Origin: a virus
Lineage: Duplodnaviria > Heunggongvirae > Uroviricota > Caudoviricetes
Length of the DNA stretch: 34,486 bases
Reading direction: 5' to 3' (one strand)
Virus record (IMG/VR): IMGVR_UViG_2645727868_000009
Notes under the pieces: model-generated
Seen by the model: the letters and a program-made list of their open reading frames with translations, nothing else
What the model was told of the DNA's origin: nothing
The model's database searches: none
Translations under genes and position numbers: made by a program
Shown here: in pieces, positions 24,855 through 31,044 of the stretch
Layout of the letters: every line of letters begins with the position of its first letter
Numbering within the stretch: position 1 is the stretch's first letter

Positions 24855-25322
24855 TTAATCAAAAAGCCCCACCTGGGTGGGGCTTTTCAGCGAAGTCTGT
24901 TTTTGTCGTCGGTGTATCAGTTGCCATGCGTACCGGTCTGAAATGCCGTAACGGGGACAGAGCAGTGCCAGCGCCTGCCGGTGTGAGCATCCGCCTTTTA
25001 CATGCTGCTGTAAATCAGCCATAAAACGGGTGTTACGCAGGGCACGTAACGCATGATCGCAACGGGGAATGTAAAACGGTGCGCCGCCAAGAAAACGGAT
25101 CAGTTTGTTGATTTCGTCTTCGGTCAGCACGTCATGTAACAGGGCATGGACACCGCCGGTGCGTTCGGCGTGTACGCCGGTTTTACCGCTTAACGTCACG
25201 CCACCAAAAGAACGAATCAACCGGGTCAGGGCGGGGAAGCCAATCACGCTAATCAGTTGCTGCACGGAATCGGGCAGCAGTGCCTGCGCATCGCGAAGAT
25301 CTGTTTCACTGAAGGTCTGCAT
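24855..25322 (-). CDS. Mor/C-family transcriptional activator
   Basis: 155-aa ORF, ATG start with GGAGA RBS; contains the GGxxxYIPR motif (FLGGAPFYIPR) and C-terminal helix-turn-helix-like segment characteristic of Mu Mor/C activators. Confidence 0.8.
   Translation of the reverse strand: MQTFSETDLRDAQALLPDSVQQLISVIGFPALTRLIRSFGGVTLSGKTGVHAERTGGVHALLHDVLTEDEINKLIRFLGGAPFYIPRCDHALRALRNTRFMADLQQHVKGGCSHRQALALLCPRYGISDRYAWQLIHRRQKQTSLKSPTQVGLFD
24861..24887 (-). terminator. Bidirectional terminator-like hairpin overlapping the Mor/C stop codon
   Basis: Perfect GC-rich inverted repeat GCCCCACC/GGTGGGGC flanked by AAAAA on one side and TTTT on the other; the minus-strand U-tract precedes the stop. 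Confidence 0.5.
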
Positions 25323-25384: not shown

Positions 25385-25409
25385 TAAAAAACCTCCGCGT
25401 TTGCGAAGG
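25385..25409 (-). terminator. Rho-independent terminator after the secreted-protein gene
   Basis: Minus-strand RNA forms a 7-bp stem with one G-U pair (CCUUCGC-AAAC-GCGGAGG) followed by UUUUUU; lies 13 nt after the stop at 25422. Confidence 0.6.
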
Positions 25410-25421
25410 TTTTTGTTCATA

Positions 25422-26402: not shown

Positions 26403-26405
26403 AAT

Positions 26406-26448
26406 GACCAAAACACTACTTTTGGCAGACCAAAAAACATGTTTTGGC
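26406..26448. promoter_or_regulatory. Two tandem 21-bp palindromic units (candidate operator)
   Basis: GACCAAAA-N-TTTTGGC at 26406-26426 and 26428-26448, each with perfect CCAAAA/TTTTGG arms and a 6-bp spacer; centres ~22 bp apart; they end 4 bp from the start of the 26124-26402 gene. Confidence 0.5.
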
Positions 26449-26556
26449 CTGCATTTGATTACTGTTTAAACAACTCGCGAAATCAGGAACGTCGAGTTTC
26501 GGTGATGGCTTTCATCGTGTTGTTGCTCCGTGATTCAGAAAATTTCATGCCGGGCC

Positions 26557-28312: not shown

Positions 28313-28532
28313 TGCCAGCCTCCTGTTTTGCCACTTTAAACGCCCGTAACATCGGGACCGTTTTACCGCTGATGACAGTGTTCATAACAATACCGATTCC
28401 ACTGTGATGTAACGCTCCCGGTGCAACAAACAGCGCAGCATCTACAACTCTGAAGTAACGGTGGAACTCCCAGAACCAGCAAGAAATAGTGATAGTTGCG
28501 GTGACCCCATGGTCATAAAATTCAATTTTCAT
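28302..28532 (-). CDS. Hypothetical protein
   Basis: 76-aa ORF, ATG start, weak RBS; stop overlaps next gene's RBS. Confidence 0.35.
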   Translation of the reverse strand: MKIEFYDHGVTATITISCWFWEFHRYFRVVDAALFVAPGALHHSGIGIVMNTVISGKTVPMLRAFKVAKQEAGNGH

Positions 28533-28756
28533 TTGCAGTTAAACCTTCTCTTATGACGTTCTACGGCAGCCTTCATATTGTTGTGCACGGTTCTTTTAAT
28601 AATCCGACGTCCCACACTGTCATAGAACCGCCACCGGGAAGCCCCCGGATATCCGGGGAACTCAACCACCGCGCTACCGTCATTCATCCTGTATTCGTGG
28701 CGTTCTCCGGGCGGCTGGTATATTGCTTCGGTAACACTGAGAAGTTTAAAAGCCAT
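28529..28756 (-). CDS. Hypothetical protein
   Basis: 75-aa ORF, ATG start with GGAGG upstream. Confidence 0.4.
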   Translation of the reverse strand: MAFKLLSVTEAIYQPPGERHEYRMNDGSAVVEFPGYPGASRWRFYDSVGRRIIKRTVHNNMKAAVERHKRRFNCK

Positions 28757-28758
28757 CG

Positions 28759-29469
28759 TTACACCCTCCCCAGTGCCAGCGGTCTGTTGCTCTGACCATT
28801 AACCCCCTGATGCAGTCTGGCGTTTTTCCCGGCGATAAAACCGGCTGTAGCGGCAAACTCTGCACCTCGACACGCTTTAGCTGTGCGCATATCCCCGTCG
28901 CGTAGCCCCTTAGTGCTGTGCAGGTTCTTTCTGTAAAGCTCAAGGCGGCTTTTTTCTTCCGGGGAGACGTCATACACCGCAATGACATCACGGGCACCAA
29001 AGACCCAGCCTTCGCAGAACTGGTCGCCACGGGCTACCCGCGTGGACGGACCACAACGTTTGCAGTGTTTATCCTGATATTTCTTGCGCTCTGCCATCAT
29101 CTGACGGGAAAGCACATCAAACGCGTAAGCCGCGATTTCCGGGCGGCTGTCAGAGCCATAAAAACGCACGTGACGTTTGAGTGAACCAGAAGCCCGGTAT
29201 TCGCCGGATATGTAACACTCGACACCGAAGGCTTTACAGACCAGGTCACACAGGATGTGCATATAACGCGGCGGTGTACTGGCATCACTCGGCGCACCCG
29301 CGCTGGCAGCTTCCTGAATGTCGAACAATTCAGCGTCGTTTTCGCTGATGCCATGCTGGCGCATATAAGCCTGGGCTTTTGCAATAGCGTTAGCGGCTTC
29401 TTCCGGGCTTGATGTTCCTCTGGCAAGGCGTAACAGTTTTTTGATTTTGGCAATGTATTTATCTTTCAT
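28759..29469 (-). CDS. DUF2786-like phage protein
   Basis: 236-aa ORF, ATG start; N-terminus (IAKIKKLLRLARGTSSPEEAANAIAKAQAYMRQHGI) matches the helical motif recalled for DUF2786; Cys-containing C-terminal domain; function unknown. Confidence 0.5.
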   Translation of the reverse strand: MKDKYIAKIKKLLRLARGTSSPEEAANAIAKAQAYMRQHGISENDAELFDIQEAASAGAPSDASTPPRYMHILCDLVCKAFGVECYISGEYRASGSLKRHVRFYGSDSRPEIAAYAFDVLSRQMMAERKKYQDKHCKRCGPSTRVARGDQFCEGWVFGARDVIAVYDVSPEEKSRLELYRKNLHSTKGLRDGDMRTAKACRGAEFAATAGFIAGKNARLHQGVNGQSNRPLALGRV

Positions 29470-29747
29470 GGTCGTCTGAACCTCAGCATCCTGAATTCTG
29501 AATTACGCAACTTCCGGCACGGCCTTCAGGAACGTGGGGAGTTCGTTCTGGCTGCGGCGCTGGATGAACATCTGCCGTCGATTGAGAACTGGTCGCAAGA
29601 CGATTAAAACAAACGATTGTCAGATTAATTTCGCGGGCGAATTTTTTTTGCTTAGCGATATTCATAAATAAACTTCCTCAGATTCAGGCGTAAGCCAGCC
29701 CCGGCGGGTTTACGCCTGTTTTAAATAACAATTAAAAACAAATTAAA

Positions 29748-29939
29748 TTAATGCGGTTCTTTCAGTGTTTCGACTTTTACGAAATAAGGCTCGACATTAA
29801 TTTCAACCACACAACCACATTTAAAATCTCTGGCAGGTGAAACGGTTTTCACCACACGACCACCACGCAACGCCGGATGTGCAGTGTGCATGAAGCGAGT
29901 CCCTACCGGATACTGCTTATTAAAGTTCTTCGCATTCAT
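29748..29939 (-). CDS. Hypothetical protein
   Basis: 63-aa ORF, ATG start, weak RBS; overlaps upstream gene end. Confidence 0.3.
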   Translation of the reverse strand: MNAKNFNKQYPVGTRFMHTAHPALRGGRVVKTVSPARDFKCGCVVEINVEPYFVKVETLKEPH

Positions 29940-30153
29940 GGCGTGGCTTCCATCCTTTCAGGTGAGCATTAGCACAGAACTCGGCCCGGTGTTCCGCCCA
30001 GATGCGGCGCAGGGTGCTACACGGGCTTTGTGCTGCCTTACGCCACAGCTTTTCAGCCTCGGCATAATCGCCGCGTTGTTCTGCTCTGGACGCGCCCAGC
30101 GAATACGCCGCGCAACTATTTCCGGCTCTGTACTCTTTGATATCCTGATGCAT
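29920..30153 (-). CDS. Hypothetical protein
   Basis: Start set to in-frame ATG at 30151-30153, 1 nt after the upstream gene stop; the track ORF extends to 30243, overlapping the upstream gene. Confidence 0.4.
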   Translation of the reverse strand: MHQDIKEYRAGNSCAAYSLGASRAEQRGDYAEAEKLWRKAAQSPCSTLRRIWAEHRAEFCANAHLKGWKPRHECEEL

Positions 30154-30154
30154 G

Positions 30155-30799
30155 TTAAACCCCTGCAATATCAAGCGGGATTGCGCGGTATTCAGCAGAA
30201 TCACCGACGCGCTCATACACGCGGATATAGCTTTTGCTGCCAATTACCTGGACGGCTTCACCAATCAGTTTCATGGCGTTATCCCAGCGTTCCTCCGTAA
30301 TATCGAGACGACGCAGAGCCAGAACGCGCCCGGTGTTAATGTTGCCTTCCTTGTCCGTGCTGAATGCTTCACTGATGATGGCTTTAATTTCAGGGCGCGC
30401 TCCTTCCGTCCAGTCAGCCAGACAGTCATCAATCAGTGCCTTCGCGGTCTGAATGCGTTCATCAAGCGCGATACGGTCCTGCATGGCGCGCTGAATCTTG
30501 TAACGCCCGTCAAAGCTGTAAAGTGTGATATTCCCTTTTTTACCGCCTTTCACAGCGCCGTATTTCTCCGCCGACAGGTCAATAAATGCCTGAATATCAC
30601 CAAACGCACGCAGTTTCAGTTCACGCAGTGAGGCAGAGGCAGCAATCACCATCTCCACAAGCTCACCGACCAGCTGCTCACGGTCGCGGTCAATATCTTT
30701 GATAAGACTTTCAGGCGTCATCACACCACGGGCATCAACCCAGTAGCCTTCCTGCACTTTATTTTTTGTATATTGCTTAACTTTATTTTCAGTCGTCAT
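30155..30799 (-). CDS. Conserved Mu-like early-region protein (DUF3164-like)
   Basis: 214-aa ORF, ATG start with GAGGT upstream. Family assignment is from memory only; not Mu Gam by sequence. Confidence 0.5.
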   Translation of the reverse strand: MTTENKVKQYTKNKVQEGYWVDARGVMTPESLIKDIDRDREQLVGELVEMVIAASASLRELKLRAFGDIQAFIDLSAEKYGAVKGGKKGNITLYSFDGRYKIQRAMQDRIALDERIQTAKALIDDCLADWTEGARPEIKAIISEAFSTDKEGNINTGRVLALRRLDITEERWDNAMKLIGEAVQVIGSKSYIRVYERVGDSAEYRAIPLDIAGV

Positions 30800-30828: not shown

Positions 30829-31044
30829 TTAATGTGTGTTATGTGCGCGAGGCGCAACATTTTCAGAAAAAAGATTCACGCCGTTATAGTCATTTCTGAG
30901 CGTTTCCTTGATAGCATCATGTAATCTTGTTGCCACCTGAAACTCCTTTTCGGAAGCTCCGTCCTTCGAATAACTCCCCGTGGTCTGGGTTAAAACACAG
31001 CCTTTTTCATCGGTATAGATAATTACTTCTAACTTAACCGCCAT
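30829..31044 (-). CDS. Hypothetical early protein
   Basis: 71-aa ORF, ATG start with strong RBS (AAGAGGAA). Confidence 0.45.
   Translation of the reverse strand: MAVKLEVIIYTDEKGCVLTQTTGSYSKDGASEKEFQVATRLHDAIKETLRNDYNGVNLFSENVAPRAHNTH

What the first reader, a model, noticed from the sequence alone, without database searches (positions are those of the whole stretch)
29470..29747. 278-bp AT-rich non-coding gap in the early region with a hairpin and a possible 60-aa gene
This is the largest gap in the early operon. It contains a 7-bp-stem hairpin (29687-29716) followed on the plus strand by TGTTTT, an 8-T run (29642-29649) and an AT-rich tract. A minus-strand 60-aa ORF (29483-29665) has a well-spaced GAGGAAG RBS but low-complexity product. 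The gap may hold an internal promoter or processing site for the downstream accessory cluster, or a small regulatory RNA.
Basis: seen in the sequence. Interest (0 to 1): 0.4.

Follow-up and report, generated by a model that had tools for sequence, protein, structure and literature searches.

The report
Conserved junction hairpin plus decayed gene cassette
The gap in this E. coli Mu-like prophage holds a highly conserved 30-base hairpin, which marks where the phage's fixed early genes end and swappable accessory genes begin, plus the broken remnant of a small backwards-facing gene; the proposed 60-aa gene is probably not real.

Summary
The window is a Mu-like prophage of E. coli, with its genes on the minus strand.

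(1) 29685-29747 is a conserved junction module: a 31-nt AT-rich spacer followed by a 30-nt GC-rich hairpin (29687-29716), then TGAATC and a Shine-Dalgarno sequence. The hairpin lies about 31 nt after the stop of the 63-aa gene (PHROG 5591) in 78 of 80 viral contigs and 39 of 41 metagenome contigs found by protein homology alone, in 23 Enterobacterales genome loci, and in Pseudomonas phage VW-6B. It is 90% identical across relatives whose flanks are about 61% identical. It shows compensatory base changes. Mosaic breakpoints fall at its edges, and extra copies separate inserted one-gene cassettes. It matches no Rfam family.

(2) 29470-29686 is a decayed cassette. It is the 3' part of a plus-strand 72-aa orphan gene, intact in 8 of 58 E. 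coli genomes, that lost its 5' end in a 167-bp deletion.

The minus-strand 60-aa ORF lies behind the module's own ribosome-binding site. It occurs only in E. coli, has frameshifted variants and matches no family.

The hairpin's function is inferred, not shown. My best guess is an intercistronic mRNA stem-loop that also serves as a recombination joint.

The parts
29748..29939 (-). 63-aa gene (PHROG 5591), the last gene of the conserved early core. The junction module always follows its stop codon.
29717..29747 (-). 31-nt AT-rich spacer between the stop codon and the hairpin. It contains three TTTAAA-like motifs about 10 nt apart.
   Evidence: GC of 29719-29747 is 7%. Spacer length is 30-32 nt in 66 of 75 unique relatives. 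The position matrix anchored on the hairpin shows TTAA at -30, TTAAA at -19 and TTTAAAAAT at -9.
29685..29718 (-). Conserved junction hairpin. The core is 29687-29716, which reads GGCGTAAACCCGCCGGGGCTGGCTTACGCC on the gene strand. In the window it is extended by CA/TG.
   Evidence: Inverted repeat I4 and folds. Exact copies occur in 38 viral contigs with diverged or unrelated flanks. Seven of 13 pairs show changes on both sides, and 0 of 500 shuffles reach the observed covariation score. It is the only covariance-model match in the window. It is present in 78 of 80 and 39 of 41 loci found through the neighbouring protein alone.
29673..29686 (-). 3' flank of the module: TGAATC followed by the Shine-Dalgarno sequence GAGGAAG. 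It serves whichever gene lies next.
   Evidence: In relatives the SD starts 6-8 nt after the hairpin in 71 of 75 cases, and the flank is TGAATC, TGAATT, TAAATC or AAAATC. The same TGAATCTGAGG precedes DUF2786 directly in L014 and L027.
29483..29665 (-). 60-aa ORF that starts 7 nt behind the module's SD and runs antisense to the gene remnant. It is probably translated as a by-product and is not a conserved protein gene.
   Evidence: ORF list. Homologues occur only in E. coli and include frameshift variants P0008 and P0009. No family matches. The N-terminal 32 codons show mostly third-position changes (6 of 8 sites). In the C-terminal half every change alters the amino acid. PGAP annotation is inconsistent.
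29470..29607 (+). 5'-truncated remnant (C-terminal about 43 codons plus stop at 29605-29607) of a plus-strand 72-aa orphan gene (WP_000564495.1). Its promoter, SD and first 29 codons were lost in a 167-bp deletion.
   Evidence: The intact gene is at L004 1858-2076 and in EPEC E2348/69. It is intact in 8 of 58 E. coli genomes and truncated at the same point in 35. It is an orphan family with 4 protein clusters, the named ones all E. coli.
29630..29649 (+). Weak stem TTCGCGGGCGAA plus the T8 run, 23 nt after the remnant's stop. At most a weak terminator of the 72-aa gene.
   Evidence: The fold gives -5.6 kcal/mol with z = 0.26. The T8 frequency is as expected by chance.
28759..29469 (-). DUF2786/DUF7168 gene. 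In many relatives it is the gene that directly follows the hairpin module.
   Evidence: Pfam PF10979 and PF23771. It directly follows the hairpin in L005, L012, L014, L020, L027 and others.

Best explanation
The gap consists of two things.

(A) 29673-29747 is a junction module of this Mu-like phage lineage: a 31-nt AT-rich spacer, a 30-nt GC-rich hairpin, TGAATC and a Shine-Dalgarno sequence. It sits at the boundary between the conserved early core (transposase A, B, DUF3164, ANR, the 63-aa gene) and the variable accessory genes.

Shown:
- The hairpin is under strong purifying and compensatory selection.
- It is the segment shared at mosaic junctions.
- Inserted one-gene cassettes are separated by further copies of it.

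Inferred:
- In the early polycistronic mRNA the hairpin acts as an intercistronic stem-loop. It would be a decay barrier or processing landmark, and an insulator that keeps the next gene's ribosome-binding site accessible whatever gene is placed there.
- Its conserved sequence gives co-resident relatives a patch of homology through which accessory cassettes are exchanged.

(B) 29470-29672 is a decayed cassette. A reverse-oriented 72-aa orphan gene lost its promoter and 5' end in a 167-bp deletion. On the plus strand, the junction hairpin followed by UGUUUU probably served as that gene's terminator.

The minus-strand 60-aa ORF is what ribosomes loaded at the module's SD would read across this remnant. 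It is not a conserved protein.
For: Context: a Mu-like prophage found in 58 of 5,426 complete E. coli genomes, with annotation.

The site is variable:
- remnant only (the window, L001);
- intact plus-strand 72-aa gene (L004);
- a 181-aa gene plus the remnant (L003);
- DUF7448 plus the 181-aa gene plus the remnant (L002);
- DUF2786 directly after the hairpin (L014, L027).

Conservation of the hairpin:
- Exact 30-mer in 38 viral contigs, many with unalignable flanks.
- Present in 78 of 80 and 39 of 41 loci found through the 63-aa protein alone.
- Present in 23 Enterobacterales genome loci and in Pseudomonas phage VW-6B.
- Mean pairwise identity: hairpin 0.90, spacer 0.61, downstream 0.61, neighbouring coding sequence 0.66 (third codon positions 0.45).

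Structure: 7 of 13 pairs change on both sides, 86.8% of cells are paired against 24-42% when the partner is slid, and 0 of 500 shuffles reach the score.

Mosaic joints:
- In 197 pairs with the same upstream but unrelated downstream sequence, similarity ends 0-15 nt after the hairpin in all but one.
- In 119 pairs with the same downstream but unrelated upstream sequence, similarity ends exactly at the hairpin's 5' edge in 102.
- Extra copies lie one gene apart in at least 11 loci. The L003 insert is exactly one hairpin-to-hairpin period.

Support for an mRNA-level role:
- The SD starts 6-8 nt after the hairpin in 71 of 75 relatives.
- Unrelated GC-rich hairpins occupy the same place directly before an SD and ATG in L087 and at the middle junction of L002.
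- L089 and L105 form perfect 13-bp stems only on the gene strand.

Remnant and ORF.
Against: - No transcript data exist here, so the RNA-level role is an inference.
- The strand is unresolved. The antisense (window plus) strand folds better in 19 of 25 variants. Wobble states are balanced, with 7 distinct G-U states valid only on the gene strand and 6 valid only on the other strand.
- A simple stability element would not need 90% sequence identity or an invariant GGG in the loop. This hints at a sequence-specific reader that I could not identify.
- Only one copy exists in the window and 1-3 in relatives, so this is not a genome-wide shuffling signal like PeSLs.
- The conserved orientation may simply reflect descent.
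- The N-terminal 32 codons of the 60-aa ORF show a weak synonymous bias (6 of 8 variable sites at third positions; my binomial p is about 0.02). A short translated peptide is therefore not excluded.
Confidence: 0.5

Rival explanations
1. The hairpin is an intrinsic terminator for plus-strand transcription, that is, transcription antisense to the early operon. It would shield the transposase and early core genes from transcription coming out of reverse-oriented accessory genes such as the 72-aa gene.
For: The plus-strand RNA folds to -24.2 kcal/mol (z = -5.1) and is followed by UGUUUUAAAU. The antisense strand folds better in 19 of 25 variants. In 69 of 75 relatives, 4-5 of the 8 bases after the antisense hairpin are T. 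Where the 72-aa gene is intact, the hairpin lies 79 nt downstream of its stop and no stronger terminator lies between them.
Against: The terminator scan did not call it. L089, L090, L105 and L087 and the middle junction of L002 have no antisense U-tract yet keep a hairpin at the same place. In most relatives the next gene is co-directional, so no antisense transcript is expected. Terminators are not normally 90% conserved in sequence.
Confidence: 0.2
2. The hairpin is the recognition site of a specific factor, either phage-encoded or a host RNA-binding protein or RNA polymerase. That factor would control read-through or translation from the early core into the accessory genes and the mor region. 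The mechanism could be a nut/put-like antitermination signal, an attenuator or timer, or a translational operator.
For: Sequence conservation exceeds what structure alone needs. G1-G4, the GGG of the loop, C27, G28 and C30 are invariant, and identity is 0.90. There is one copy per genome at a fixed place and a fixed 30-32 nt distance from the upstream stop. The neighbouring 63-aa protein is a basic small beta-barrel of the SH3/KOW/Tudor type, a fold that includes nucleic-acid binders. The semi-conserved C(U/C)(U/C)UUUUAAA before the hairpin faintly resembles boxA (the resemblance is from my memory of the boxA consensus).
Confidence: 0.15
3. The AT-rich spacer is an internal promoter, as in T4 PeSLs, that drives the accessory cluster. 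The palindrome would overlap the transcription start as an operator or a 5' stem-loop.
For: The spacer has a fixed 31-nt length with TTAAAC-like and AAAAAT-like hexamers about 17 nt apart, ending at the hairpin.
Against: The consensus scan found no promoter in 28500-30500. By my own hexamer reading, the match is at best about 7 of 12 positions. A start about 7 nt after the -10 would fall inside the 5' arm and abolish the RNA hairpin, yet the outer pairs covary. L089, L195 and L087 lack the AT-rich spacer.
Confidence: 0.08
4. The 60-aa ORF (29483-29665) is a genuine small protein gene, and the gap is therefore mostly coding.
For: It has a good SD and spacing. PGAP annotates it. The frame is open in all 14 unique copies, and 6 of 8 variable sites in the first 32 codons are at third positions.
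Against: It is found only in E. coli, and frameshifted versions P0008 and P0009 exist in nature. In the C-terminal half every change alters the amino acid. There is no family match. The SD belongs to the junction module and precedes other genes elsewhere. The ORF runs antisense across a recognisable gene remnant. Its product is of low complexity.
Confidence: 0.07

Closest known systems
PeSL (promoter-early stem-loop) mobile regulatory cassettes of T4-type phages (Arbiol et al. 2010, PMC2839356; Comeau et al. 2014, PMC4122927)
   Same: A short conserved motif containing a stem-loop sits at the borders of variable, mostly orphan ORFs. Indels between close relatives are bounded by copies of the motif. 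The motif is the point of exchange between otherwise unrelated sequences.
   Different: No promoter is detectable here. There are 1-3 copies per genome rather than many. The phage lineage is different (transposable Mu-like phages) and the sequence is unrelated. The main copy is anchored behind one particular core gene.
Intercistronic stabiliser hairpins and REP elements in polycistronic mRNAs, such as malE-malF REP, and 5'-terminal stem-loops of the ompA type (from my knowledge of the literature, not tested here)
   Same: A GC-rich stem-loop between cistrons of one operon, next to AU-rich single-stranded RNA and directly before the next ribosome-binding site.
   Different: No decay or processing data exist for this element. 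Its sequence conservation is much higher than such a role requires. It is phage-specific and does not match the REP consensus.
Boundary sequences and morons of lambdoid phages (moron definition as summarised in Cazares et al. 2014, PMC4378225)
   Same: The 72-aa gene behaves like a moron. It is a single reverse-oriented ORF that is present or absent between the same two genes in close relatives, with its own SD and a downstream hairpin plus U-tract.
   Different: Its promoter is seen only by eye (TGTCATAAT, an extended -10); the consensus scan finds none. In the window the gene is truncated and dead. That paper states that the flanks of accessory ORFs in Mu-like phages had not been analysed.
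Integron attC sites
   Same: An array of single-gene cassettes in one orientation, each separated by an imperfect hairpin-forming repeat.
   Different: The hairpin has no attC core-site consensus (GTTRRRY / RYYYAAC). No integron integrase was sought or noticed. At most three cassettes were seen. Breakpoint data fit homologous exchange within the repeat.

Membership tests
PeSL (T4-type promoter-early stem-loop) | Located at the borders of variable ORFs, with indels between close relatives bounded by copies of the motif | tested here: met
   The L003 insert equals one hairpin-to-hairpin period, and breakpoints cluster at the hairpin edges.
PeSL (T4-type promoter-early stem-loop) | Composite of an early sigma-70 promoter and a terminator-like stem-loop | tested here: not met
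   There is no promoter-like site in 28500-30500. The spacer consensus matches only about 7 of 12 hexamer positions (my reading). No U-tract follows the hairpin on the gene strand.
PeSL (T4-type promoter-early stem-loop) | Many copies dispersed through the hyperplastic regions of a T4-type genome | tested here: not met
   There is one copy in the 34-kb window and 1-3 in relatives. The host genome is Mu-like, with MuA and MuB homologues.
Rho-independent terminator (plus strand) | GC-rich stem-loop immediately followed by a U-rich tract | tested here: inconclusive
   The stem is strong (-24.2 kcal/mol) and the tail is UGUUUUAA. The scanner did not call it. Most relatives have 4-5 T in 8 after the hairpin, but some have none.
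Any Rfam family | Score at or above the family's gathering threshold | tested here: not met
   There are 0 matches in the whole window. The best sub-threshold hit is Lnt at 26 bits against 55.
Structured RNA/ssDNA element (generic) | Compensatory base changes that maintain the helix across relatives | tested here: met
   Seven of 13 pairs change on both sides, and 0 of 500 shuffles reach the score. The strand is unresolved.
Integron attC | Core sites RYYYAAC / GTTRRRY at the base of the hairpin | tested here: not met
   The hairpin ends are GGCGTAA / TTACGCC, which do not fit the consensus. I quote the consensus from memory.
Integron attC | An IntI tyrosine recombinase encoded nearby | not tested
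   I made no search for an integrase. None was noticed in the RefSeq annotation of the region viewed.
Lambda-type nut site | boxA (CGCUCUUA) followed by a boxB hairpin and an N-like protein | tested here: not met
   The window spacer UUUAAUUUGUUUUUAAUUGUUAUUUAAAACA has no boxA. Only a loose C(U/C)(U/C)UUUUAAA occurs in some relatives. No N-like gene was identified.
Protein-coding gene (60-aa ORF) | Conservation at protein level in relatives | tested here: not met
   There are five protein clusters, the named ones all E. coli, and two are frameshift variants. The C-terminal half shows only non-synonymous change. No family matches.
Moron (72-aa plus-strand gene) | A single ORF inserted between two genes that are adjacent in related phages | tested here: met
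   It is present, truncated or absent between the 63-aa gene and DUF2786 among 58 E. coli prophages.
Moron (72-aa plus-strand gene) | Own promoter and terminator | tested here: inconclusive
   AGGAG lies 7 nt before the ATG, and TGTCATAAT is seen by eye in L004. The scanner finds no promoter or terminator. The nearby T8 stem is weak.

The most novel reading that the evidence does not exclude
The 30-nt hairpin (GGCGTAAACCCGCCGGGGCUGGCUUACGCC) with its fixed-length AU-rich leader is an undescribed cis-regulatory RNA of transposable phages. A specific host or phage factor would read it to gate transcription or translation from the transposition core into the accessory genes and the distal mor activator. 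It would thus act as a lytic-cycle timer or antitermination signal. The same element would also define a portable expression slot into which any accessory gene, such as an anti-defence gene, can be dropped.
Probability: 0.15. Interest if true: 0.7.

Novelty: new variant of a known kind. Interest (0 to 1): 0.5.

Why it matters
- The hairpin gives a simple sequence landmark (a covariance model scoring about 50 bits) for the start of the accessory-gene hot spot in a widespread group of Mu-like prophages of Enterobacterales. Genes next to it are small, diverse and mostly unknown (DUF7448, zinc-ribbon-like proteins, PHROG 7741). This is the kind of place where anti-defence or host-takeover genes are usually found.
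- It provides a concrete case, outside T4-type phages, of a conserved stem-loop serving as the joint of mosaic exchange. Cazares et al. 2014 (PMC4378225) stated that the flanks of accessory ORFs in Mu-like phages had not been analysed.
- Sequence conservation stronger than in the flanking protein genes points to a still unknown reader, which can be tested directly.
- For annotation, the 60-aa 'hypothetical protein' (WP_128497447.1) is doubtful, and the region should carry a pseudogene remnant and a regulatory or structural feature instead.

Tried and rejected
- Near-identity search of phage genomes found no match. A sensitive search with the 91-nt module found only Pseudomonas phage VW-6B and a Salmonella fragment, so Mu itself and the other sequenced phages in that collection lack the element.
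- Rfam at gathering score and at E up to 10 gave nothing usable.
- Promoter and terminator consensus scans of the window region and of L004 were negative for the gap.
- Strand assignment from folding energies and from G-U versus A-C states was inconclusive.
- T8 plus a small stem as a terminator: no better than chance.
- Function of the 63-aa neighbour from structure: only a generic small beta-barrel, no specific relative.
- Defence-system profiles for all cassette proteins gave no match.
- Considered from the sequence and rejected:
  - A -1 frameshift signal (UUUAAAU plus hairpin). It lies after the stop codon and the spacing is wrong.
  - An RNase III site. The helix is only 13-15 bp.
  - A CRISPR-repeat mimic, a tRNA-like minihelix and the RfaH ops element. 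There is no sequence match, judging from my memory of those consensus sequences.
  - An IHF site. There is no consensus match.
- A second GGCG...CGCC string at 30851-30882 came from my loose search pattern. It lies inside a coding region and scores only 8 bits.
- Literature searches for a described Mu-like intergenic hairpin found nothing.

Full report
CONTEXT. The window is a Mu-like (transposable) prophage with its genes on the minus strand. An identical 2.2-kb stretch occurs in E. coli chromosomes. Its RefSeq annotation reads, in transcription order: Mu transposase, AAA ATPase (B), small ORFs, DUF3164, ANR-family regulator, a 63-aa protein, [the gap], DUF2786, then small accessory ORFs and a gp16-family protein. 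Of 5,426 complete E. coli genomes, 58 carry the region.

OBSERVATION.
- The inverted repeat is longer than described. The arms are 29685-29700 and 29703-29718. The fold is -24.2 kcal/mol as plus-strand RNA (z = -5.1) and -19.2 kcal/mol as minus-strand RNA (z = -2.05).
- The gap is only partly AT-rich: 54% GC in 29470-29607, 33% in 29608-29686, and 7% in 29719-29747.
- The T8 run is no more than chance, and the little stem beside it folds like shuffled sequence.
- PGAP annotates the 60-aa ORF in some copies of the prophage and not in others.

THE SITE IS A CASSETTE HOT SPOT. Close relatives (95-100% identical flanks) differ exactly here. The forms seen are:
- the window form;
- a form with an intact plus-strand 72-aa gene (L004, and EPEC E2348/69);
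- a form with an extra 181-aa gene (PHROG 7741; L003);
- a form with DUF7448 plus the 181-aa gene (L002);
- a form in which DUF2786 follows the hairpin directly (L014, L027).

In L003 the extra DNA is exactly one hairpin-to-hairpin period. In L002 each of the three junctions carries a hairpin, and the middle one is a different GC-rich hairpin.

THE LEFT HALF IS A DEAD GENE. Plus-strand 29470-29607 is the C-terminal part of the 72-aa gene WP_000564495.1.
- In L004 that gene has AGGAG 7 nt before its ATG and, by eye, an extended -10 (TGTCATAAT). The consensus scan does not call a promoter.
- The window lacks 167 bp that carry the promoter, SD and the first 29 codons. The deletion joins two ATGG motifs.
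- Among the 58 E. coli genomes, 8 have the intact gene, 35 have the same truncation and 15 share only the hairpin end.
- The protein is an orphan: four clusters, the named ones all E. coli, and no family match.
- On the plus strand, the junction hairpin followed by UGUUUU is the only strong terminator-like structure downstream of it.

THE 60-AA ORF.
- It starts 7 nt behind GAGGAAG. That SD belongs to the junction module: the same TGAATCTGAGG precedes DUF2786 or other genes in relatives.
- Across 14 unique copies both frames stay open. In the first 32 codons of the minus ORF, 6 of 8 variable sites are at third positions (my binomial p is about 0.02). In the remaining codons every change alters the amino acid in both frames.
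- A search of 5.8 billion proteins finds only E. coli copies. These include a 53-aa frameshift variant and a 59-aa double-frameshift variant.
- I conclude it is not a conserved protein gene. Ribosomes may well translate it, and this could matter for polarity over the 200-nt remnant. In the window its stop lies 13 nt before the DUF2786 ATG. That arrangement is absent in L004, so translational coupling is not a conserved feature.

THE HAIRPIN IS A CONSERVED ELEMENT.
- The exact 30-mer occurs in 38 IMG/VR contigs. In many of them the flanking genes are 73-78% identical to the window or cannot be aligned with it.
- The layout, read on the gene strand, is always the same: stop of a homologue of the 63-aa gene, AT-rich spacer, hairpin, TGAATC-like flank, SD, ATG of a variable gene.
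- Loci retrieved only through the 63-aa protein (down to 46-50% identity) carry the element in 78 of 80 viral contigs. One further copy is cut off by a contig end, and L087 has an unrelated hairpin at the same place. It is also in 39 of 41 metagenome contigs.
- A degenerate pattern finds it in 23 genome loci of Enterobacterales: Photorhabdus, Xenorhabdus, Yersinia, Serratia, Pantoea, Erwinia, Pectobacterium, Citrobacter, Kosakonia, Trabulsiella and others. The same scan gave six chance matches without the context.
- Pseudomonas phage VW-6B has it at the same position, after its homologue of the 63-aa gene.
- Mean pairwise identity is 0.90 for the hairpin, 0.61 for the spacer, 0.61 downstream, and 0.66 for the neighbouring coding sequence (0.45 at third positions).
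- The spacer is 30-32 nt long in 66 of 75 unique loci, and the SD begins 6-8 nt after the hairpin.
- The window has exactly one copy.
- No Rfam family matches, and I found no description in the literature.
- Cazares et al. 2014 state that the flanks of accessory ORFs in Mu-like phages had not been analysed.

STRUCTURE. On 25 distinct variants, the 13-bp helix has 7 pairs with changes on both sides. Cells paired are 86.8%, against 24-42% when the partner column is slid. None of 500 shuffles reaches the covariation score. G1-G4, the loop GGG, C27, G28 and C30 are invariant.

WHICH STRAND? This is unresolved.
- The antisense (window plus) strand folds better in 19 of 25 variants, because the common A-C mismatch at pair 8-23 becomes G-U there.
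- L089 and L105 have three or four G-U pairs that work only on the gene strand.
- Distinct wobble states are 7 (gene strand only) against 6 (other strand only).
- Indirect arguments favour the gene strand. Unrelated hairpins sit at the same place directly before an SD in L087 and at the middle junction of L002. The variants L089, L105, L087 and L195 lack any antisense U-tract. In most relatives nothing is expected to be transcribed on the other strand.

MOSAIC JOINT.
- Among 128 unique instances, 197 pairs share at least 93% identity upstream but are unrelated downstream. In all but one of these pairs, similarity ends 0-15 nt after the hairpin.
- In 119 pairs with the same downstream but unrelated upstream sequence, similarity ends exactly at the hairpin's 5' edge in 102.
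- At least 11 loci have two or three copies one gene apart, always in the same orientation.
- This is the pattern reported for PeSLs in T4-type phages (PMC2839356; PMC4122927). Here, however, there is no detectable promoter and there are few copies.

MECHANISM.
- Shown: the hairpin is a selected, structured element of fixed position that coincides with recombination breakpoints and with cassette borders.
- Inferred (about 0.4-0.5): in the early mRNA it is an intercistronic stem-loop next to AU-rich RNA and just before the next ribosome-binding site. It would act as a decay barrier or processing landmark and as an insulator. The flanks (R-N-A-U-U/C) resemble the RNase E preference; this resemblance is from memory and was not tested. 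Its conserved sequence also serves as homology for cassette exchange.
- Rivals: a plus-strand terminator (0.2), the site of a specific regulator such as a nut/put-like signal or translational operator (0.15), and an internal promoter or operator (0.08).
- The sequence conservation is stronger than a purely structural role needs. That is the main unexplained point and the basis of the novel reading.

VERDICT. It is partly wrong on three points: the gap is not simply non-coding, the 60-aa ORF is not a gene, and there is no detectable promoter. The hairpin is an undescribed, widely conserved junction element. It is a new variant of the known kind 'conserved stem-loop at mosaic gene borders and intercistronic mRNA hairpin'.

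Noticed in passing
window 26406-26448: Two adjacent 21-nt near-palindromes (GACCAAAACACTACTTTTGGC and GACCAAAAAACATGTTTTGGC) lie in the 154-nt gap between two accessory or early ORFs (26403-26556). They could be an operator pair or a terminator-like pair.
   Followed up: no
window 24862-24887 and 25387-25414: A perfect 12-nt palindrome with A/T tails (AAAAGCCCCACC..GGTGGGGCTTTT) and a second one (AAAAACCTCCGC..GCGAAGGTTTTT). They look like bidirectional intrinsic terminators and may mark the ends of the early and middle transcription units.
   Followed up: no
window 29920-30153 (minus): RefSeq names this 77-aa product an ANR-family transcriptional regulator. It matches phrog_2227 and no Pfam family. 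It is part of the conserved early core of this Mu-like lineage, including the EPEC E2348/69 prophage.
   Followed up: partly
L002 2047-2592 and 2657-3043; L018/L060 2724-3671: The accessory cassettes placed behind the hairpin in relatives are diverse small proteins. They include PHROG 7741 (181 aa), DUF7448 (128-130 aa), CxxC zinc-ribbon-like 59-aa and 154-aa proteins, and 53-, 71-, 88- and 104-aa orphans. None matches PADLOC defence models. They are candidates for anti-defence or host-takeover functions.
   Followed up: partly
window 28533-28758: This is the second-largest unannotated stretch in the early region (226 nt in the RefSeq annotation of the identical prophage). It contains a 75-aa minus-strand ORF (28529-28756) that PGAP leaves unannotated. 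In a relative (L002 920-1057) a 45-aa ORF is annotated there instead.
   Followed up: no
window 30851-30882: A 32-nt string with GGCG...CGCC ends (GGCGCAACATTTTCAGAAAAAAGATTCACGCC) lies inside the 71-aa ORF 30829-31044 and is conserved in relatives. It scores only 8 bits with the hairpin model and is probably a coincidence of my loose search pattern.
   Followed up: partly
L159 (metagenome contig OJLM01007422.1), just after the 63-aa gene: In this one relative the spacer breaks off after 17 nt and unrelated sequence follows where the hairpin should be. This may be an insertion or rearrangement at the junction, but the contig is too short to tell.
   Followed up: no
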